A stretch of DNA of 64,000 bases from an uncultured Gammaproteobacteria bacterium (GTDB lineage Bacteria > Pseudomonadota > Gammaproteobacteria > GCA-001735895), in assembly GCA_963768295.1 (NCBI GenBank), contig CAVYHN010000009.1, positions 262,548 through 326,547 of the forward strand, written 5' to 3'. Position 1 is the stretch's first letter, and every line of letters starts with the position of its first letter. The notes below the pieces were generated by a model. That model made no database searches, was not told where the DNA came from, and saw nothing but the letters and a program-made list of their open reading frames with translations. Positions 48,245 to 56,396 of this stretch are shown here, piece after piece. The position numbers and the translations under genes were made by a program.

Positions 48245-48380
48245 GGTCGGGCCGGGTTAAAAACGCCGTATAATAACCCCAATGCCCGGGACACCAAACT
48301 TAATTTGCGCTTCGAGCGCGTAGTGCGCTCTCGGGATCACTACCACTTGCCCTGATTTTGAATTAGAATGCGCCCTCTTT

Positions 48381-48466
48381 GCCGGGGTGGCGGAACTGGT
48401 AGACGCGGCGGATTCAAAATCCGCTGGTGGTAACACCTTGGGGGTTCGAGTCCCCCCCCGGTACCA
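48381..48466 (+). tRNA. tRNA-Leu (anticodon CAA)
   Basis: GCCGGGGTGGCGGAACTGGTAGACGCGGCGGATTCAAAATCCGC…GGGGTTCGAGTCCCC…ACCA. Long variable arm, anticodon loop TT-CAA-AA, encoded CCA. Confidence 0.85.
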
Positions 48467-48485
48467 GCCTCGAGCAGGCTGAGTT
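48463..48485 (+). terminator. rho-independent terminator after tRNA-Leu
   Basis: CAGCCT-CGAGC-AGGCTG hairpin followed by AGTTTT immediately after the tRNA 3' end. Confidence 0.45.
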
Positions 48486-48642
48486 TTAACGCTAGACCAG
48501 CCCCTCTTTACTGCAGGCTTACCCCCTTGCTGACATCCTGTCGCAGTGTCAGATGTTCGCTATAGCGTCCCATCAAATGCCAATGGGGTATCTAGTCAGT
48601 GGCAAGCGCACAAGCTCAGGTCAATCCAGATGCAGGTATCTG

Positions 48643-50535
48643 TTACCCGAAGTTCAATATTAATCGAACCTGCGTTCCTGTCAGGGATCCGTTTATTTCA
48701 AGCTTTGCTCCAAGTTGCCCTGCGCGGTAGTGCATGTTCTTTATGCCCCGCCCTGCACTATTGCCGCCGGTGCTATTCTGCAAACCCCGGCCATAGTCGA
48801 TGATGTCAATATAAATCTGTGAATGTTCTGTTGCCAGCACCCCCGTCGTTAAGGTCAATTTCGCGGACCCAGAATGTTTGGCGCTATTGTTAATCGCCTC
48901 CTGCAGGATGCGCATGATGTGCAAACACTCGCCAGGCCCAATTGCCTCGCATTCGGGAAGATCAGTCACCGCCCACTCAAGTTCCATATTCGCCGAGCTA
49001 AGCTGCTCGGTAAATCGCATCCTCATCATTCCCAACAAGGTCGGCAAATCGCTGAGTACCGGGTCGAGCGAATCAATGACCAGACGCAAATCGGTTAAAC
49101 TGTGCTGCACCTTGTCACGAACGTTTCCAAAAACCTCTCCGCTTTTATCCTGCAACTGCGCGACGATGGATACCAGTTGCCCGCCGATACCATCATGCAT
49201 GTCACGCATGATTCGCTCACGCTCCTCTGCAAGCAGCCGTTTTTGCTCCGATATCCGCAGTTCCTGGTACTGGTTCTCCAGAGTCATCTGCTTTTCCCTT
49301 ACCCGTTGCTCGAGCACGGCAGTCATTTCTTCGGCCTGATTTATCGAACGCACGAAACGTCTGATCATGAACCAGCTGAATAACATGATTGATGGGATAA
49401 CACTGTACTGGACGATCAGTCCGTCAAGGCGGTCGATTAAATTATTCAGCAGCAAATAGTCATGCAGGCCTGAGACCAGGATGGGCATGCCGACTAAAAG
49501 CATCAGAAAAGCATCCTGAGCCGTTTTGTGATTTTTCTCTTCGCGGTAGTAAACAAATAGCAGATGCGAAATAGCGTAAATACCCAGCAGGCAAATACCG
49601 GTATCAAGAATGTGATAACCGACGTAATGGACGCTACTGACATCCGGAAGAAAAAGTAAACCGATGCTGGCGAGCGCGAAATACAGAATGATCTTTTCTA
49701 TTTTTTTATTCGCATAACCTACATAGCTGTGATTGAAGAAAATCATGGTCACGATCGTCCACACAAACGAAACCAGAATAACGGCCTCCCACAGACGAGT
49801 AGACACCGGCACGCCGGTGACAAACAGGTTTAGGTTATGCGTAGCCCAGAGAAACAGTTCCAGAGAAAACAAGGCGTAGACAATATCCTTGCGCCTGGCC
49901 AGCCAGAAGGCAAAAACGATCATCGACATGAAATACATCGCGGCGGTAATCCACTGAATAAATTCAAAACGGACCAGCCGCTTCCAGTCATAGGCAGGCT
50001 GTAGCTTTTTTGCCGGGCCGAAATAAAAACGATCGAGTAGACCCTGCTTGCCGACGGTGGTCTGCATTCGAATGTGAATACGGTTTTCACCCGAACGTAA
50101 CAGGTTTGACGAAAAGTTGATCATTAGTGGCTGATTGTGATGCCGCGACAAGGGCTCATCAAAACTGCCACCCTGGCCCACCCAGAGGCCATTGACATAC
50201 ACCGCGGCATTGTGAAAAACCATGGGCAAGTACACGGCCCATGCCGCCTCGGATCTGTCTTCAACGACAATTGTGGCCCGATACCAGGCACGATCCACCT
50301 GGGAATCTCGTTTCGCCCAGTCATCGGGTAACGACGCGGGCTGCCAATCCCCGGTTGGTAATTGAGCGGGTTCAGACAAATCGCTTGCGAGGTATTCGAG
50401 TTTTTCGATAGCCGGCAACTGTGGTTCGAAAAAAATACTGAATGGGGTATGAAAAACGACGACATTTAACAATGCCAGATAGATAAACAGAATCGAAAAC
50501 GCTGTGATTTTATGCCGGGTAAACCATGAAAACAT
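48643..50535 (-). CDS. 7TM-receptor-type sensor histidine kinase (periplasmic 7TMR-DISM-like sensor + 7 TM + HisKA_3 + HATPase), copy 1
   Basis: 630 aa: N-terminal extracellular domain, 7 TM helices, H-box RIMRDMHDGIGGQL (NarX/DegS-type), ATPase G-boxes. Confidence 0.85.
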   Translation of the reverse strand: MFSWFTRHKITAFSILFIYLALLNVVVFHTPFSIFFEPQLPAIEKLEYLASDLSEPAQLPTGDWQPASLPDDWAKRDSQVDRAWYRATIVVEDRSEAAWAVYLPMVFHNAAVYVNGLWVGQGGSFDEPLSRHHNQPLMINFSSNLLRSGENRIHIRMQTTVGKQGLLDRFYFGPAKKLQPAYDWKRLVRFEFIQWITAAMYFMSMIVFAFWLARRKDIVYALFSLELFLWATHNLNLFVTGVPVSTRLWEAVILVSFVWTIVTMIFFNHSYVGYANKKIEKIILYFALASIGLLFLPDVSSVHYVGYHILDTGICLLGIYAISHLLFVYYREEKNHKTAQDAFLMLLVGMPILVSGLHDYLLLNNLIDRLDGLIVQYSVIPSIMLFSWFMIRRFVRSINQAEEMTAVLEQRVREKQMTLENQYQELRISEQKRLLAEERERIMRDMHDGIGGQLVSIVAQLQDKSGEVFGNVRDKVQHSLTDLRLVIDSLDPVLSDLPTLLGMMRMRFTEQLSSANMELEWAVTDLPECEAIGPGECLHIMRILQEAINNSAKHSGSAKLTLTTGVLATEHSQIYIDIIDYGRGLQNSTGGNSAGRGIKNMHYRAGQLGAKLEINGSLTGTQVRLILNFG

Positions 50536-50600
50536 AACTGTCCGCCCGCTTCTTTGGAGCTAGTGCATATAGCTCACAAGAGAAATATCCGCTGATACCG

Positions 50601-51245
50601 CTAAGGTAAGAGCCCCTGTTGAATCGCCTGGTAAATAGCTTCTGATCGGCTGTTAACCTGCAGCTTATTATATATATTTTTGATATGCGTGGTGACGGTG
50701 TAATACGTGATGCCCAGTTTCTCGGAAACCTCTTGCGCCGAGAAACCCTGGCTCAACAGTTTCAGAATCTTTGTTTGCCTTGGGGTTAAGGCTTCGGGCA
50801 AAGGAATCGTCTGGGTTTGCACATTATGAAACTTCAACAGCATCAGCCGCGCAATAACCGGGCTCATCGGGGCACCGCCATCGATCATGGCGAGAATGGC
50901 ATCGGTGATTTTCTGACTCTTATCGTGTTTTAGAATATAGGCTTTGGCACCCGCTTCCAGTGCCTTGAACACCAGGTTTTCATCCTGAAAACCGGAAATC
51001 ACCATCGCGTCGCAATCCAGGTGCTGTTGCTCGATGGCCCTGATAATGTCGATACCGGAACCATCCGGCAAGCCGAGATCGGTGAGCAACACATCCGGTT
51101 TATGTTGAGATAAGGCCGACAAACCCTGCTCCATCGTGCCGCAGGCATCGAGCAGCTCGAACTGCTCGTGCTCCGCAATCAGGCTTGATAAACGACCCCG
51201 TACATCGGCATCATCCTCGACCAGCGTCACGGTATATTTATGCAT
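50601..51245 (-). CDS. NarL/FixJ (LuxR)-family response regulator, copy 1
   Basis: 214 aa, receiver (…DVLLTDLGLPDGSG…) plus C-terminal LuxR HTH (…ALTPRQTKILKLLSQGFSAQEVSEKLGITYYTVTTHIKNIYNKLQVNSRSEA…). Confidence 0.9.
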   Translation of the reverse strand: MHKYTVTLVEDDADVRGRLSSLIAEHEQFELLDACGTMEQGLSALSQHKPDVLLTDLGLPDGSGIDIIRAIEQQHLDCDAMVISGFQDENLVFKALEAGAKAYILKHDKSQKITDAILAMIDGGAPMSPVIARLMLLKFHNVQTQTIPLPEALTPRQTKILKLLSQGFSAQEVSEKLGITYYTVTTHIKNIYNKLQVNSRSEAIYQAIQQGLLP

Positions 51246-51347
51246 TGTTCATTAATCCGGAAAACATGCCTGTTATTGTAATGGCTGGCAGCGGCGTATC
51301 ACATTCACCCAGGGCATTGAGGGACAGATCGGAACCGAGATCCGCAG

Positions 51348-52221
51348 CTAGTAAATATACACCGAGCCGGCAAAGGAAGCGCTGTTATCCGACTGATCGC
51401 CACCGATACCGGTGGTCACACTATCCTCATCAGTGGCCCCCACTGCCAGGGTGCCGCCGTCTCCAGATAAGGCCAGGTTTAGACCGAACTCATCATTATC
51501 CTCGGTATTTGAAGCCTTGACGTAACCGATAGCCTCGACCAGATTAGCCGATAAGACCAACTCCGCAGAGGCGCATACCATCAACTTGACCAGAATGTTC
51601 CTTTGCAATCAGTTGATTATTATGCTCGATATCCTGATTGTATTGTAAACTAAAGTAATTATTTTCTATTCGACCTTCTTGCAATTCACCGCGACAAGAA
51701 TTCTTAAGACAAAAATTCACGACTTTCCAATTATATTTCGTCTTACATTGTCGACATTCTTGTTGAGGACCATTAACCGATTTTTTAACAACTAAAATAT
51801 CCGGATGCAACAACAATGCTTCTTGATTTCGATGCATATAATTTTCTATATAACCCATTTCGGTTAAAAAGGCAACAGCTTCATTCAAGTATGCTTCTTG
51901 GTTTTGAATATCATCACCGAAACATCTTCGGGTCCAGGTAGTCAAAGTTCGAGAAGTTCTTAATGCGAATGTATTAAAACGGTCCCCAAGCAATCTTCTT
52001 TGCTGCGGTTCAGCATTTGAAAAACATCCGGGTTTTGTTCCTTCAACAGCTTCAAATATTCTTTTGTCCGGAAGTATTTGACTTATTGGAACTATTACTT
52101 GTTGACCAAATGTTTCTCTATCAAGTAAGTTAGGATGGTTAAAGGCATTCTCTCTTCGGAATATATCCATTATCCCCTTGAGGTAATCATGCGCCAGATC
52201 AGGATTTTCAGCCGAAAGCAA
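51348..52221 (-). pseudogene. low-GC gene X copy 1: Cys-rich N-domain plus C-terminal FG-GAP-like repeat, split by a 2-nt indel
   Basis: ORF 51544..52221 (…CRQCKTKYNWKVVNFCLKNSC…NNQLIAKEHSGQVDG) and ORF 51348..51608 (…CASAELVLSANLVEAIGYVKASN…FG…LALSGDGGTLAVGATDEDS…VYIY) are contiguous in the right-arm copy but out of frame here (GGTATGCGCC versus GGTTGTTGCGCC). GC content drops to about 35-40%. Confidence 0.45.
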
Positions 52222-52416
52222 ATCATTACTCTTTAAATTAAATGAGTCTAATTTGCTTTCGGGTGAAAATCCAGATCTGACGCATGATTATCTCAAGGGT
52301 ATAATGGATATTTTCATAAGAGAAATGCTTTTAACCATTCTAACTTACTTGATAGAGAAACATTTGTCAACAGGTAATAATTCCAATTAGTCAAATACTT
52401 CCGGATAAAAGAATAT

Positions 52417-53118
52417 TTGAAGCTGTTGAAGGAACAAAAGTTCAGGGGTGTTTTTCAAACGCTGAACCGCAGCAAAGAAGAATTGCTTGGGTGCCGTTTT
52501 AATCCTTTCGCATTAAGAATTTCTCGAACTTTGAATACCTGGACTCGAAGATGTTTTGGTGATGATATTCAAAACCAAGCATACTTGAATGAAGCTGTTC
52601 CTTTTTAACCGAAATGGGTTATATAGAAAATTATATGAGTCGAAAGCATTGTTGTTGCATCCGGATATTTTAGTTGTTAGGAATTCGGTAATAGGTCCTC
52701 AACAAGAATGTCGACGATGTAAGACGAAATATAATTGGAAAGTCAGTGAATTTTTGTCTTAAGAATTCTTGTCGCGGTGAATTGCAGAAGGTCGAATAGA
52801 AATAATTACTTTAGTTTACAATATCAATCAGGATATCGACGTAATAATCAACTGATTGCAAAGGAACATTCTGGTCAAGTTGATGGTTGTTGCGCCTCTG
52901 CGGAGTTGGTCTTATCGGCTAATCTGGTCGAGGCTATCGGTTACTTCAAGGCGTCGAATGCTGAAGCAAGTGATGAGTTCGGCACGACCCTGGCCTTATC
53001 CGCTGATGGCAGCACCATGACAGTGGGGACTGTTGATGAGGATAGTGCCTCGACCGGGATCGGTGGCGATCAGCCGGATAACAGCGCTACCTCTGCAGGT
53101 GCGGTGTATATTTACTAG
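52417..53118 (+). pseudogene. low-GC gene X copy 2: N-domain degraded by multiple frameshifts and stops, FG-GAP tail intact
   Basis: ORF fragments 52417..52608 (…FALRISRTLNTWTRRCFGDDIQNQAYLNEAV…) and 52777..53118 (…NNQLIAKEHSGQVDGCCASAELVLSANLVEAIGYFKASN…AVYIY) match copy 1. Intervening frames are broken but still show similarity (LLLHPDILVV…GPQQECRRCKTKYNWKV). Confidence 0.4.
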
Positions 53119-53219
53119 CTGTGGATCTCAGCTCAGACCCGTTTGCCAATGCCTGGCCGAATGTGAAATATTGGTGTCAGCCATTACAATAACAGGCATG
53201 TTTTCCGGATTAATGAACA

Positions 53220-53864
53220 ATGCATAAATATACCGTTACGCTGGTTGAGGATGATGCCGATGTACGGGGTCGTTTATCAAGCCTGATTGCGGAGCACGAG
53301 CAGTTTGAGCTGCTCGATGCCTGCGGCACGATGGAGCAGGGTTTATCGGCCTTATCGCAACATAAACCCGATGTGTTGCTCACCGACCTCGGCTTGCCGG
53401 ATGGTTCCGGTATCGACATTATCAGGGCCATTGAGCAACAACATCTGGATTGCGACGCGATGGTGATTTCCGGTTTTCAGGATGAAAACCTGGTGTTCAA
53501 GGCACTGGAAGCGGGGGCCAAAGCCTATATTCTAAAACACGACAAGAGCCAGAAAATCACCGACGCCATTCTCGCCATGATCGATGGCGGTGCTCCGATG
53601 AGCCCGGTTATCGCGCGACTGATGCTGTTGAAGTTTCATAATGTGCAAACCCAGACGATTCCCTTGCCCGAAGCCTTGACCCCGAGGCAAACCAGGATTC
53701 TGAAACTGTTGAGCCAGGGTTTCTCGGCGCAGGAGGTTTCCGAGAAACTGGGTATCACTTATTACACTGTCACCACGCATATTAAAAATATATATAATAA
53801 GCTGCAGGTTAACAGCCGATCAGAAGCTATTTACGAGGCGATTCAACAAGGGCTCTTACCTTAA
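53220..53864 (+). CDS. NarL/FixJ (LuxR)-family response regulator, copy 2
   Basis: 214 aa, differs from copy 1 at 2 residues (K to R, Q to E). Confidence 0.9.
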   Translation: MHKYTVTLVEDDADVRGRLSSLIAEHEQFELLDACGTMEQGLSALSQHKPDVLLTDLGLPDGSGIDIIRAIEQQHLDCDAMVISGFQDENLVFKALEAGAKAYILKHDKSQKITDAILAMIDGGAPMSPVIARLMLLKFHNVQTQTIPLPEALTPRQTRILKLLSQGFSAQEVSEKLGITYYTVTTHIKNIYNKLQVNSRSEAIYEAIQQGLLP

Positions 53865-53928
53865 CGGGTCAGCGAAAATTTTTCTTGTAAGCTATATGTA
53901 GTAGCTGCAGAGGGAGTGGCAGACATAT

Positions 53929-55821
53929 ATGTTTTCATGGTTTACCCGGCATAAAATCACAGCGTTTTCGTTTCTGTTTGCCTATCTGGTATTGTTAAAT
54001 GTCATCGTTTTTCATACTCCATTCAACATTTTTTTCGAACCACAGCTGCCGGCTGTTGAAAAACTCGAATACCTTGAAAGTGATTTATCTGAGCCCGCTC
54101 AATTACCAACCGAGGATTGGCGGCCCGCGTCGTTACCCGATGACTGGGCGAAACGAAATACCCAGGTAGATCACGCCTGGTATCGGGCCACAGTTATCGT
54201 TGAAGACAGACCCGAGTCAGTATGGGCCGTGTACCTGCCCATGGTTTTTCACAATGCCGCGGTGTATGTCAATGGCCTCTGGGTGGGCCAGGGCGGCAGT
54301 TTTGATGAGCCGTTGTCACGGCATCACAATCAGCCACTAATGATCAACTTTTCATCAAGCCTGTTACGTTCGGGTGGGAACCGTATTCACATTAGAATGC
54401 AGACCACCGTCGGCAAGCAGGGTTTACTCGATCGTTTCTATGTCGGCCCGGCAAAAAAGCTACAGTTTGCCTATGACTGGAAGCGGTTAATCCGGTTTGA
54501 ATTTATTCAGTGGATTACCGCCGCGATGTATTTCATGTCGATGATCGTTTTTGCCTTCTGGCTGGCCAGGCGCGCGGATATTGTCTACGCCTTGTTTTCC
54601 CTGGAACTGTTTCTCTGGGCTACGCATAATCTAAACCTGTTTGTCACCAGCGTGCCGGTGTCTACTCGTCTGTGGGAAGCCATAATTCTGGTTTCGTTTG
54701 TCTGGACGATCGTAACGATGATTTTCTTCAATCACAGCTATGTTGGTTATGCGAACCGGAAAATAGAGAAGATAATTCTGTATTTCGCGCTCGCCAGCAT
54801 CGGTTTACTTTTTCTTCCGGATGTCAGTAGCGTTCATTACGTCGGTTATTACATTCTTGATACCGGTATTTGCCTGTTGGGTATTTACGCTATTTCACAT
54901 CTGCTATTTGTTTACTATCGCGAAGAGAAAAATCACAAAACAGCCCAGGATGCTTTTCTGATGCTTTTAGTCGGCATGCCCATCCTGGTTTCAGGCTTGC
55001 ATGACTATTTGCTGCTGAATAATTTGATCAATCGCCTGGACGGACTTGTCGTTCAGTACAGTGTCATCCCATCAATCATGTTATTCAGCTGGTTCATGAT
55101 CAGACGTTTTGTGCGTTCGATAAATCAGGCTGAAGAAATGACTGCCGTGCTCGAGCAACGGGTAAGGGAAAAACAGATGACCCTGGAGAGCCAGTACCAG
55201 GATCTGCGAGTATCGGAGCAAAAAAGGCTGCTTGCAGAGGAGCGTGAGCGAATCATGCGTGACATGCATGATGGTATCGGCGGGCAACTGGTATCCATCG
55301 TCGCGCAGTTGCAGGATAAAAGCGGAGAGGTTTTTGGAAACGTTCGTGACAAGGTGCAACACAGTTTAACCGATTTGCGTCTGGTCATTGATTCGCTCGA
55401 CCCGGTGCTCAGCGATTTGCCGACCTTGTTGGGAATGATGAGGATGCGATTTGCCGACCAGCTAAGCGCGGCGAATATGGAACTTGAGTGGGCGGTGACC
55501 GATCTTCCCGAATGCGAGGCTATCGGACCTGGCGAGTGTTTACATATCATGCGTATCTTGCAGGAGGCTATTAACAATAGCGCCAAACATTCTGGATCCG
55601 CTAAATTGACCTTAACGACGGGAGTGCTGGCTGCAGAACATCCGCAGATTTATATTGACATCATCGATTATGGCCGGGGTTTGCCGAATAACACCGGCGG
55701 CAATCATGCAGGGCGGGGCATAAGGAACATGCACTACCGCGCAGGGCAACTTGGAGCAAAGCTTGAAATAAATGGATCCTTAACGGGAACACTGGTTAGA
55801 TTAATATTGAATTTTCGATAA
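53929..55821 (+). CDS. 7TM-receptor-type sensor histidine kinase, copy 2
   Basis: 630 aa, same architecture as copy 1 with about 40 substitutions, concentrated in the N-terminal extracellular sensor domain and the C-terminal ATPase tail. Confidence 0.85.
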   Translation: MFSWFTRHKITAFSFLFAYLVLLNVIVFHTPFNIFFEPQLPAVEKLEYLESDLSEPAQLPTEDWRPASLPDDWAKRNTQVDHAWYRATVIVEDRPESVWAVYLPMVFHNAAVYVNGLWVGQGGSFDEPLSRHHNQPLMINFSSSLLRSGGNRIHIRMQTTVGKQGLLDRFYVGPAKKLQFAYDWKRLIRFEFIQWITAAMYFMSMIVFAFWLARRADIVYALFSLELFLWATHNLNLFVTSVPVSTRLWEAIILVSFVWTIVTMIFFNHSYVGYANRKIEKIILYFALASIGLLFLPDVSSVHYVGYYILDTGICLLGIYAISHLLFVYYREEKNHKTAQDAFLMLLVGMPILVSGLHDYLLLNNLINRLDGLVVQYSVIPSIMLFSWFMIRRFVRSINQAEEMTAVLEQRVREKQMTLESQYQDLRVSEQKRLLAEERERIMRDMHDGIGGQLVSIVAQLQDKSGEVFGNVRDKVQHSLTDLRLVIDSLDPVLSDLPTLLGMMRMRFADQLSAANMELEWAVTDLPECEAIGPGECLHIMRILQEAINNSAKHSGSAKLTLTTGVLAAEHPQIYIDIIDYGRGLPNNTGGNHAGRGIRNMHYRAGQLGAKLEINGSLTGTLVRLILNFR

Positions 55822-56355
55822 TTGATACCTGCATCTGGATTGACCTGAGCCTGAAAGTATCTTCACTCAGAGTAAAGCATTCGGATTCAACAGGCCATCA
55901 TCCGTGAACCGCTATACGCAGCCGGACATGGCGCCGTGGTCGGTGAACTTAACCAGGTGACCAATAGGGCGGTGCGGGCAAAACAGGGGTCGAGGTCATT
56001 CTCGATTATTTGGGATCCTCCGCCGGCGCTGAAAAAAAACTTCAAGCCCATACAATCGCACAAATAGAAAACCCCAGGGGACTTGTCGCGGGGAAAATCC
56101 GGGCGGCTCATTCCTGGTTGCGAGAATAGGGCAGAAATCGAATTAGTCGGACAGGCTATTTATAACAAAGATCTTTGACAGGGAGCAATCGAGCAGATAG
56201 CAAATCCAGAAACAGGGTTTCTTCGTACGGAGTTTTGCGGGGATTGGTTGTGCATTGTTATGCTTCGTGGTGCAAAGCCTGGAATCGCGCGCCACATAAG
56301 CTCATGAAAAATAGAGAAGTATAAGTTGGTTTGTAATCTGAAAATCCCCGTGTCG

Positions 56356-56396
56356 GTGCCGAGCGCGGACCGGTTCGATTCCGCCCCTGGGCACAA
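56356..56396 (+). other. tRNA 3'-end-like remnant (T-loop GGTTCGATTCC plus acceptor-like CCCTGGGCACAA)
   Basis: GTGCCGAGCGCGGACCGGTTCGATTCCGCCCCTGGGCACAA resembles the T-arm and acceptor 3' strand of a tRNA-Leu(CAG)-type gene (…GTTCGAGTCTCGCCCTGGGCACCA). No matching 5' half upstream. The intact tRNA-Leu(CAA) 3' end at 48466 is different. Confidence 0.3.

What the first reader, a model, noticed from the sequence alone, without database searches (positions are those of the whole stretch)
51348..53118. Low-GC centre of the palindrome encodes two broken copies of an unrecognised protein with a Cys cluster and a single C-terminal FG-GAP-like repeat
Gene X (about 310 aa when reconstructed) has an N-domain with CRQCKTKYNWKVVNFCLKNSC, a possible zinc-binding cluster with no family I can name. 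Its tail is …AIGY[VF]KASN…DEFG…LALS.DG.T..VG…DEDS…GIGGDQ.DNSA…VYIY, an FG-GAP/integrin-alpha-type repeat ending exactly at the stop. Copy 1 carries a 2-nt indel separating the N-domain from the repeat. Copy 2 keeps the repeat in frame but its N-domain has multiple frameshifts and stops. The 5' ends of both copies abut at the palindrome centre. GC content and codon usage are foreign relative to the flanks. It could be a decaying acquired gene, a split or recoded gene, or a sensor accessory for the adjacent two-component system.
Basis: partly seen in the sequence, partly recalled or inferred. Interest (0 to 1): 0.7.

Follow-up and report, generated by a model that had tools for sequence, protein, structure and literature searches.

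The report
Chimeric pseudogene at a palindrome centre
"Gene X" is not a new protein: it is two mirror-image leftovers in which an internal piece of a phage-defence helicase gene from a Flavobacterium-type donor was fused to the last repeat of the host's own FG-GAP lipoprotein gene and then duplicated as a palindrome.

Summary

- **Low-GC part.** This part (35-36% GC) is an internal fragment, residues 758-982 of 1608, of a YprA-family defence helicase. It is 87% aa and 86% nt identical to WP_091422963.1 of Formosa sp. Hel1_31_208. That gene sits in a DrmD-like SNF2, DrmMI-like methylase and DruE-like helicase ("ARMADA"-type) island.
- **Cys cluster.** It is that family's conserved zinc module.
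- **Tail.** The 54-55% GC tail is the remnant of a native 596-aa, seven-repeat FG-GAP_2 lipoprotein gene. That gene is intact upstream of the same regulator-kinase pair in close metagenomic relatives.
- **Fusion point.** The two parts meet at a 7-nt microhomology, TGATGGT.
- **Palindrome.** Its centre lies on a TTAA/AATT site inside the helicase fragment, so both copies lack the helicase 5' end. The structure starts 145 nt from a tRNA-Leu, where synteny with relatives ends.
- **State of the genes.** Both kinase-regulator pairs are intact and under purifying selection. Neither helicase-derived copy can encode a working helicase.
- **Unexplained.** Copy 1 has almost no private changes, while copy 2 has 36 substitutions and 12 indels.

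Interest is low to moderate.

The parts
48380..48465 (+). tRNA-Leu(CAA). Synteny with close relatives ends exactly at its 3' end, so it marks the left edge of a variable or island region.
   Evidence: ARAGORN and Rfam. Relatives L089-L091 (89-93% nt identity) align up to window 48467-48470 and no further. In those relatives an HSP20 gene and a large PAS/HisKA/EAL sensor gene follow instead.
48611..52236 (-). Left arm of the palindrome: kinase, regulator, FG-GAP remnant, helicase fragment. It is the derived copy, and its outer joint at 48611 lies 145 nt from the tRNA.
   Evidence: Inverted-repeat families I1-I6. Homology to relatives stops at 48611 on this side, but runs 16 nt further on the right side.
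48643..50535 (-). Histidine kinase, left copy (630 aa, HisKA_3 + HATPase_c), intact.
   Evidence: ORF list. Left versus right copy: dS 0.22, dN/dS 0.15. Pfam on the right copy.
50601..51245 (-). NarL/LuxR-type response regulator, left copy (214 aa), intact.
   Evidence: Left versus right copy: dS 0.21, dN/dS 0.02. Response_reg + GerE.
51348..51521 (-). Copy 1 FG-GAP_2 repeat plus stop codon. It is 100% nt identical to the seventh (last) repeat of the intact 596-aa gene in L082.
51522..51576 (-). Copy 1 pre-repeat segment of the FG-GAP gene (...CASAELVLSANLVEAIGY). It carries the derived 2-nt deletion next to the junction.
51577..52236 (-). Copy 1 helicase fragment, matching codons about 762-982 of the Formosa YprA-family helicase. 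It is open, with no indels. The TGATGGT junction microhomology is at 51577-51583.
   Evidence: BLASTP 195/225 identical, E 1e-137. blastn 86.0% over 642 nt with 0 gaps. dN/dS against Formosa 0.069.
52232..52242 (.). Palindrome centre TTTAA-A-TTAAA. It corresponds to the AATTAAG site of the donor-type gene.
52237..52887 (+). Copy 2 helicase fragment with the same end points. It is shattered by 12 indels and 36 private substitutions. TGATGGT is at 52881-52887.
   Evidence: blastn 78.4% with 12 gap openings. Three-way alignment.
52888..53118 (+). Copy 2 FG-GAP remnant: the pre-repeat segment (52888-52944) plus one hybrid repeat and the stop codon (52945-53118). The first third of the repeat is closest to repeat 1 of L082 and the last third to repeat 7.
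53220..53864 (+). Response regulator, right copy, intact.
53929..55821 (+). Histidine kinase, right copy, intact.
55854..55869 (+). 16 nt beyond the palindrome that are still homologous to the single-copy relatives. This marks the right arm as the ancestral location.

Best explanation
The region is a genomic scar, not a gene.

1. **Foreign DNA arrives (inferred).** DNA carrying a YprA-family defence helicase gene of Flavobacteriaceae type came to lie in the variable region downstream of tRNA-Leu(CAA) of this gammaproteobacterium. The gene was ARMADA/Druantia-like, about 34% GC, and probably part of a defence island. It lay upstream of a native operon: FG-GAP lipoprotein, then NarL-type regulator, then histidine kinase.
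2. **Fusion (shown by sequence).** An illegitimate recombination at the 7-nt microhomology TGATGGT joined helicase codon 982 to about codon 104 of the FG-GAP gene. The join happens to be in frame. It removed the helicase 3' third and the lipoprotein's signal peptide and N-terminal domain.
3. **Repeat collapse (the structure is shown; how it arose is inferred).** The seven FG-GAP repeats were reduced to one by recombination between repeats.
4. **Inverted duplication (the structure is shown; how it arose is inferred).** A fold-back or template switch at a TTAA/AATT tetranucleotide in helicase codon about 762 duplicated everything from there to 32 nt past the kinase stop. This produced the 7.2-kb palindrome and removed whatever lay between the tRNA and the axis, including the helicase 5' half.
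5. **Present state (shown).** Both regulator-kinase pairs remain under purifying selection. The helicase-derived pieces cannot act as helicases: they lack RecA1, nearly all of RecA2 and the MZB/DUF1998 module. Copy 2 is riddled with frameshifts. Copy 1 is cut off by a 2-nt deletion at the fusion point.

The Cys cluster is the zinc-binding module that this helicase family carries in the domains inserted at the start of RecA2.
For: - **Helicase origin.** The 90%-identity cluster of the annotated 208-aa ORF holds one other member, the 1608-aa DEAD/DEAH helicase of Formosa sp..
- **Internal fragment.** The alignment covers residues 758-982 without gaps at 87% identity. It stops exactly at ...GQVDG, where the GC content jumps.
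- **Distant relatives.** All 26 other relatives found by exhaustive HMMER match the fragment at an internal position. Many are about 1,700-aa helicases and the rest are shorter.
- **Parent protein domains.** The parent has DEAD, Helicase_C and MZB domains and matches DruE models at E 1e-106.
- **Parent neighbourhood.** Its neighbours are a DrmD-like SNF2 protein, a DrmMI-like methylase, GmrSD and an integrase. This is the ARMADA architecture described in PMC12458937.
- **Divergence pattern.** Copy 1 versus Formosa gives dS 0.785 and dN/dS 0.069, so the divergence happened in functional genes and the captured piece is young.
- **Intact FG-GAP parent.** An intact 596-aa FG-GAP_2 gene lies directly upstream of a regulator and kinase that are 90-96% nt identical to the window's, in L082; L083-L086 are cut inside the gene upstream of the regulator, which matches FG-GAP repeats.
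- **Tail composition.** The window tail is that gene's pre-repeat segment plus its terminal repeat.
- **Shared junction.** Formosa, L082 and both copies all carry TGATGGT at the join.
- **Kinase and regulator.** Both copies are intact, with dN/dS of 0.15 and 0.02.
- **Island boundary.** Synteny breaks at the tRNA-Leu 3' end.
- **Ancestral side.** The right arm keeps the ancestral downstream flank.
Against: - **Donor not sampled.** The actual donor and any fuller island remnant have not been found. GTDB representative genomes and JGI metagenomes gave nothing. Whether a whole island or only a short fragment entered is therefore unknown.
- **Unequal decay.** The two helicase pieces are far from equally decayed. 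A simple "duplicate, then decay neutrally" history does not predict this.
- **Mosaic arms.** Relative to the metagenomic relatives the arms are mosaic, with 100%-identical patches next to 76-96% patches. Dating and ordering the events is therefore unreliable.
- **No read data.** I could not see raw reads. The palindrome itself rests on one assembly of unknown type (isolate or MAG).
Confidence: 0.85

Rival explanations
1. Copy 1 (the 208-225 aa ORF, 51544-52221 on the minus strand) is a domesticated stand-alone protein. It would be a helical/winged-helix plus zinc-ribbon module taken over from the defence helicase and kept by selection, while copy 2 is the redundant, decaying duplicate.
For: - Outside the first 15 nt, copy 1 has only 2 private substitutions, both synonymous, and no indels in 642 nt.
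- Copy 2 has 36 private substitutions and 12 indels. The binomial p values are 3e-6 and 5e-4.
- The fragment is predicted to fold as a compact unit, with pLDDT 83.5 and pTM 0.79.
- The ORF is annotated as a protein in the source record (P0001).
Against: - Selection alone does not fit. At copy 2's rate about 7 synonymous changes are expected in copy 1 and 2 are seen (my calculation from the counts).
- No protein with this architecture exists elsewhere in 5.8 billion clusters.
- The ORF ends inside a RecA2 motif, followed by 10 out-of-frame codons.
- No consensus promoter was found reading leftwards from the centre.
- In the intact helicase these domains pack against RecA2 (PMC12458937).
Confidence: 0.1
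2. Gene X is a real, once-intact gene for a novel Cys-cluster plus FG-GAP protein that was acquired horizontally and is now decaying in two copies.
For: In copy 2 the two halves are in frame across the join, and the reconstructed ORF ends at a natural stop codon.
Against: - Each half has a separate intact parent in a different phylum, and the two halves differ in GC by 19 points.
- The join sits on a 7-nt microhomology shared by both parents.
- The N part starts and ends in the middle of helicase domains.
- No homologue has the combined architecture.
Confidence: 0.02
3. The palindrome, or the heavy damage to copy 2, is an assembly or sequencing artefact. Candidate causes are a hairpin chimera, strain-mixed consensus in a metagenome-assembled genome, or poor base-calling of the second arm of an inverted repeat.
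For: - The arms are a patchwork of segments 100% identical to sequences from other metagenomes and segments only 76-96% identical.
- Copy 2's damage is confined to the 620 nt next to the axis. It stops abruptly before a stretch of about 104 nt that is identical between the arms.
- The assembly type is unknown.
Against: - The arms differ by substitutions that respect the reading frames of two intact 630-aa and two intact 214-aa genes, with dN/dS of 0.02-0.15.
- The flanks on the two sides are unrelated.
- Both novel joints lack the long exact overlap an assembler would need.
- Copy 2's private substitutions are enriched for synonymous changes, 15 of 34 against 7.1 expected (p = 0.002), and none is a nonsense change. 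Random errors would not do that.
Confidence: 0.05

Closest known systems
YprA-family defence helicases of the ARMADA/Druantia clade (ArmC / DruE), as described in PMC12458937. The nearest sequence is WP_091422963.1 of Formosa sp. Hel1_31_208.
   Same: - The low-GC part is 87% aa and 86% nt identical to residues 758-982 of this protein.
- It carries the family's conserved CxxC...C...C zinc module and the AxEHSGQVxG motif at the start of RecA2.
- The Formosa gene sits with a DrmD/BrxHII-like SNF2 helicase and a DrmMI/PglX-like methylase, as in ARMADA.
   Different: - Only 225 of 1608 residues are present.
- RecA1, nearly all of RecA2, the OB/connector region and MZB/DUF1998 are missing.
- No partner genes are nearby.
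- The host is a gammaproteobacterium with 55% GC.
- It is a relic of a family member, not a working member.
FG-GAP_2 (PF14312) repeat lipoproteins, represented by the 596-aa protein of L082.
   Same: - The tail is the pre-repeat segment plus the terminal repeat of this gene.
- Copy 1 is nucleotide-identical to its repeat 7.
- The downstream regulator-kinase pair is the same.
   Different: - One repeat instead of seven.
- No signal peptide or lipobox, and no N-terminal domain.
- It is fused to foreign sequence.
Snap-back / template-switch inverted duplications: bacterial tandem inversion duplications and the ODIRA model (PMC4689423, PMC10766183).
   Same: - The long inverted duplication has its axis on a very short natural palindrome (TTAA/AATT).
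- It has a second, unrelated outer joint.
   Different: - Only two copies are present, not the inverted triplication these models start from.
- The event is old enough for the arms to have diverged by 5-8% in most segments and about 17% in the FG-GAP remnant.
- How it formed is inferred from the structure only.
Microhomology-mediated illegitimate recombination of foreign DNA, for example homology-facilitated illegitimate recombination after natural transformation. This comparison rests on my own background knowledge and was not checked in a paper here.
   Same: The foreign and native sequences are joined at a 7-nt shared string with no other homology.
   Different: The other end of the foreign segment has been erased by the palindrome, so the mode of entry cannot be tested.

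Membership tests
YprA-family defence helicase (ARMADA ArmC / Druantia DruE-like) | RecA1 (DEAD/DEAH) ATPase domain | tested here: not met
   Pfam finds DEAD at residues 85-283 of the Formosa parent. The window fragment starts at residue about 758, and Pfam finds no helicase domain in it.
YprA-family defence helicase (ARMADA ArmC / Druantia DruE-like) | Complete RecA2 (Helicase_C) domain | tested here: not met
   Helicase_C covers residues 967-1043 in the parent. The fragment ends at residue 982 and so keeps only about 16 residues of it.
YprA-family defence helicase (ARMADA ArmC / Druantia DruE-like) | C-terminal MZB/DUF1998 zinc-binding domain | tested here: not met
   MZB is at residues 1496-1583 of the parent and is absent from the window.
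YprA-family defence helicase (ARMADA ArmC / Druantia DruE-like) | Inserted helical/winged-helix domain with a conserved Cys4 zinc module before RecA2 | tested here: met
   In the 22-sequence alignment C156, C159 and C171 are invariant and C176 is at least 90% conserved. The AF2 model is confident. Foldseek gives only weak winged-helix hits with E > 0.1. The domain description comes from PMC12458937.
YprA-family defence helicase (ARMADA ArmC / Druantia DruE-like) | Operon partners (SNF2 helicase and PglX/DrmMI-type methylase, or DruH) | tested here: not met
   They are present next to the Formosa gene. None is present in the window around the fragment.
FG-GAP_2 repeat (beta-propeller) protein | Match to PF14312 | tested here: met
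   Copy 1 scores 23.5 bits against a cut-off of 23. Copy 2 scores 21.7 bits, just below it. The intact relative scores 120.7 bits.
FG-GAP_2 repeat (beta-propeller) protein | Several tandem repeats, enough to close a propeller | tested here: not met
   Each copy has one repeat, against seven in L082.
FG-GAP_2 repeat (beta-propeller) protein | Export signal (lipoprotein signal peptide in the intact relative) | tested here: not met
   L082 starts MNHDKLMPLVFCTLILAAC.... I read this as a lipoprotein signal by eye. That part of the gene is replaced by helicase sequence in the window.
Programmed frameshift / recoded gene | One gene whose two frames together encode a conserved protein | tested here: not met
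   The two frames come from unrelated parents. The 2-nt gap is a derived deletion relative to copy 2 and L082.
Accessory component of the adjacent two-component system | Conserved gene neighbourhood with the regulator-kinase pair | tested here: inconclusive
   An FG-GAP gene is adjacent in five close relatives. Among 80 more distant kinase loci only 2 have an FG-GAP match, although 75 keep a match to the regulator.

The most novel reading that the evidence does not exclude
The near-perfect preservation of copy 1 against the heavy, partly synonymous-biased divergence of copy 2 may reflect something beyond neutral decay. One option is that the 208-225 aa winged-helix/zinc-ribbon fragment of a defence helicase has been taken over as a stand-alone protein, for example a DNA-binding regulator or a decoy. 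The other is that one arm next to a long palindrome's axis is subject to a localised, strand-biased hypermutation or repair process.
Probability: 0.12. Interest if true: 0.6.

Novelty: new member of a known kind. Interest (0 to 1): 0.3.

Why it matters
- **Annotation.** It removes a false lead. The "unrecognised Cys-cluster/FG-GAP protein" should not be annotated or pursued as a new family.
- **A documented transfer scar.** It is a clean case of cross-phylum transfer (Bacteroidota-type to Gammaproteobacteria) of a defence-system gene fragment. Both rearrangement joints are readable at nucleotide resolution: a 7-nt microhomology fusion and a palindrome axis on a 4-nt palindrome. The whole structure lies at a tRNA-linked variable region.
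- **A database trap.** The 208-aa relic is the representative of the 90% cluster and hides the 1608-aa helicase behind it.
- **An open observation.** The unequal fate of the two mirror copies is the only part that might lead somewhere new.

Tried and rejected
- **Family scans of the N part alone.** Pfam, NCBIfam and PADLOC found nothing. The identification came only from the cluster look-up.
- **Phage records.** tblastn found no match.
- **Plasmid records.** Only about 23-27% identical helicases turned up, in two haloarchaea and a Clostridium.
- **Searches for closer donors or other carriers of the chimera.** GTDB representative genomes and JGI metagenomes gave nothing, either by peptide patterns or by a degenerate 30-mer across the conserved end of the fragment.
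- **Exact-protein look-up of P0001.** No contig was returned.
- **Foldseek of the AF2 model against PDB.** There were no significant hits, only weak winged-helix matches. Sequence search finds related solved helicase chains, entries 9tu7 and 9wae, but none appeared among the fold hits.
- **Repeat of the tRNA-Leu 3' end.** The search that might have marked an island's far end failed because I mistyped the C-run. The question remains untested.
- **Organism name.** None of the looked-up window proteins carries a name in the collection. From kinase relatives it is a gammaproteobacterium.
- **Single burst of error-prone fold-back synthesis or single-strand deamination as the cause of copy 2's damage.** Rejected because about 8 events per 100 nt is far above any polymerase error rate I know of. 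This is my own estimate.
- **Gene conversion of copy 1 from an intact helicase elsewhere in the genome.** Rejected because the 90% cluster has only two members.
Full report
**1. What is in the sequence**

The window holds a 7.2-kb palindrome, 48611-55853. Reading each arm from the outside in:
- a 630-aa HisKA_3/HATPase_c histidine kinase;
- a 214-aa Response_reg + GerE regulator;
- the finding's "gene X".

GC falls from about 50-57% to 34-38% in the central 1.3 kb.

- Copy 1 (minus strand) has an open 225-aa frame with the Cys cluster, and a second frame with the repeat.
- Copy 2 (plus strand) keeps the repeat in frame, but its N part is broken by many frameshifts.
- The two 5' ends meet at TTTAA-A-TTAAA, 52232-52242.
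- The tail matches Pfam FG-GAP_2 at about the gathering score.

**2. The N "domain" is an internal piece of a defence helicase**

Family scans of the N part alone found nothing. A word-seeded search of 5.8 billion clusters found only the window's own annotated 208-aa ORF, P0001.

That cluster has one other member: WP_091422963.1, a 1608-aa DEAD/DEAH box helicase of Formosa sp. Hel1_31_208. Comparison with it shows:
- BLASTP aligns the N part to residues 758-982 at 87% identity without gaps, E 1e-137. The match stops exactly at ...EHSGQVDG.
- At the DNA level copy 1 is 86.0% identical over 642 nt with no gaps. Copy 2 is 78.4% identical with 12 gap openings.
- The fragments are 36.3% and 34.6% GC. 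The Formosa gene is 34.2% and the window as a whole is 54.7%.

An exhaustive HMMER search of 1.84 billion representatives found 26 further relatives. All match the fragment at an internal position, and many are helicases of about 1,700 aa.

The Formosa protein has these features:
- DEAD at residues 85-283, Helicase_C at 967-1043 and MZB/DUF1998 at 1496-1583.
- Matches to PADLOC DruE models at E 1e-106.
- Neighbours that are a DrmD-like SNF2 helicase (E 5.5e-115), a DrmMI-like methylase (E 1.6e-89), a GmrSD protein and an integrase-like protein.

PMC12458937 names this arrangement ARMADA. It combines DISARM-type partners with a Druantia-like YprA helicase, and is often carried by elements that integrate at tRNA genes. 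The same paper describes zinc-binding modules and a MarR-like domain inserted at the start of RecA2.

- In a 22-sequence alignment C156, C159 and C171 are invariant and C176 is at least 90% conserved. The cluster is followed by the near-invariant AxEHSGQVxG motif.
- An AlphaFold model built on that alignment is confident, with pLDDT 83.5.
- Foldseek gave only weak winged-helix hits.

**3. The tail is the stump of a native gene**

The regulator's 90% cluster led to five metagenomic contigs, L082-L086, that are 90-96% nt identical to the arms. In the longest, L082, an intact 596-aa protein sits directly upstream of the regulator and kinase. That protein starts with a lipoprotein-type signal and has seven FG-GAP_2 repeats (Pfam 120.7 bits).

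The window's tail is made of two pieces of that gene:
- the segment just before repeat 1 (L082: ...NSDGCSASAELVLSTDLVEAIGYF);
- a single repeat that ends at the natural stop codon.

In copy 1 that repeat is 100% nt identical to L082 repeat 7. In copy 2 it is a hybrid: the first third is closest to repeat 1 and the last third to repeat 7. This explains the low (83%) arm-to-arm identity there.

**4. The joints**

The four sequences at the fusion point are:
- Formosa: ...CAGGTTGATGGT|CAAACA...
- L082: ...AATAGTGATGGT|TGTAGC...
- Copy 2: ...CAAGTTGATGGT|TGTTGC...
- Copy 1: ...CAAGTTGATGGT|A--TGC...

The fusion therefore sits on a shared TGATGGT. It is in frame by chance, because both parents read Asp-Gly there. 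Copy 1's 2-nt gap is a later deletion.

The axis falls on the AATTAAG of the helicase gene, about codon 762, so both copies lack the 5' half.

Three observations fix the outer ends and the setting:
- The palindrome's outer ends lie 32 nt past the kinase stops.
- On the right, homology to the single-copy relatives continues 16 nt further, and a 57-nt element at 56338-56394 is also shared. The right arm is therefore the original site and the left arm the copy.
- On the left, synteny with three relatives (89-93% nt) runs from the flagellar, secDF, tgt and queA genes up to the 3' end of tRNA-Leu(CAA) at 48465 and stops there.

The right flank is 48.6% GC and the left flank is 56.9%. The whole structure thus lies at the edge of a tRNA-linked variable region.

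**5. State of the genes**

- The two kinases differ at dS 0.22 with dN/dS 0.15.
- The two regulators differ at dS 0.21 with dN/dS 0.02.
- Both pairs are therefore maintained by selection.
- Among 80 more distant kinase loci, 75 have a match to the regulator but only 2 have any FG-GAP match. The lipoprotein is therefore not a conserved partner of this two-component system.

**6. Most likely history**

1. Foreign helicase DNA entered, possibly as a whole island. This step is inferred.
2. A microhomology fusion joined it to the FG-GAP gene. This is shown by the sequence.
3. The repeats collapsed to one. The structure is shown; how it arose is inferred.
4. A fold-back or template-switch event at a 4-nt palindrome produced the inverted duplication and deleted the tRNA-proximal part. 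The structure is shown. The way it formed is inferred by analogy with the snap-back and ODIRA models (PMC4689423, PMC10766183).

Copy 1 versus Formosa gives dN/dS 0.069, with differences of 19, 12 and 59 at codon positions 1, 2 and 3. Almost all divergence from the known relative therefore arose in working genes, and the captured fragment is young and has not drifted toward the host's base composition.

**7. What remains unexplained**

The two helicase fragments were polarised with the Formosa gene as outgroup:

| | Copy 1 | Copy 2 |
|---|---|---|
| Private substitutions | 6: four in the first 15 nt at the axis, and two elsewhere that are both synonymous | 36, spread evenly up to 46 nt before the junction |
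| Indels | 0 | 12 |

Further features of the pattern:
- After the last copy 2 event comes about 104 nt that is identical between the arms, apart from the 2-nt deletion.
- Copy 2's private transitions are strand-biased: A>G 9 and C>T 7, against T>C 1 and G>A 2.
- Copy 2's private substitutions are enriched for synonymous changes, 15 of 34 against 7.1 expected, p = 0.002.
- The helicase pieces differ by about 6%, less than the synonymous divergence of the adjacent kinase and regulator genes.
- The arms are mosaic relative to the relatives. There are long runs where the left arm equals L082 and the right arm does not, and one stretch where the reverse holds.

Population recombination clearly blurs the clock. 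Even so, none of these explanations fits all the numbers:
- plain neutral decay;
- selection on copy 1 alone;
- random sequencing error.

I report it as an open observation and give the domestication or hypermutation reading about 12%.

**8. Verdict**

The interpretation as a novel 310-aa protein is not. The object is a chimeric relic of two known kinds of gene at the centre of a real-looking inverted duplication. Read-level validation was not possible.

It is ordinary in kind, instructive in detail, and of low to moderate interest.

Noticed in passing
window 48380-48470: Synteny with three close relatives (L089, L090, L091; 89-93% nt identity) ends exactly at the 3' end of tRNA-Leu(CAA). The relatives have an HSP20 gene and a 1216-aa PAS/HisKA/receiver/EAL sensor there instead of the palindrome. 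The right flank is 48.6% GC against 56.9% on the left. Everything right of the tRNA therefore looks like a tRNA-linked variable or island region of more than 15 kb. No integrase was seen in the ORFs I scanned.
   Followed up: partly
window 56338-56394: A 57-nt element contains GGTTCGATTCC and resembles the 3' part of a tRNA, but ARAGORN does not call it. It is conserved at about 90% identity downstream of the kinase in relatives L083 and L084. It may be an old attachment-site remnant.
   Followed up: partly
window 51577-52236 versus 52237-52887: The two mirror copies have had very unequal fates. Copy 1 has 2 private synonymous changes and no indels. Copy 2 has 36 private substitutions, strand-biased in transitions and enriched for synonymous changes, plus 12 indels. 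About 104 nt that are identical between the arms follow at the junction.
   Followed up: yes
window 48611-51525 and 52941-55869 versus L082-L086: The arms are mosaics. The left arm is 100% identical to the metagenomic relatives over the last repeat and the following intergenic stretch, and 98-100% identical around the end of the regulator gene and the start of the kinase gene. The right arm is 98% identical to them in the 5' half of the regulator. This indicates recombination with other strains, or a strain-mixed consensus assembly.
   Followed up: partly
L081 (Formosa sp. Hel1_31_208, LT629733.1 1067014-1091840): The parent helicase lies in a defence island: an integrase-like protein, a DrmD-like SNF2 helicase, a DrmMI-like methylase, the YprA/DruE-like helicase, GmrSD, DUF2779 and, further along, a NERD protein. 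The architecture is ARMADA-like, but GmrSD takes the place of the GajB/RelE-type fourth gene.
   Followed up: partly
protein cluster of P0001: The 208-aa relic ORF from this window is the representative of a 90%-identity cluster whose only other member is the 1608-aa Formosa helicase. Searches that show only representatives therefore hide the informative full-length protein.
   Followed up: yes
Pfam at E <= 0.01 finds only HisKA_3 and HATPase_c, plus a spurious Tudor hit. The N-terminal sensor and membrane part has no family match.
   Followed up: no
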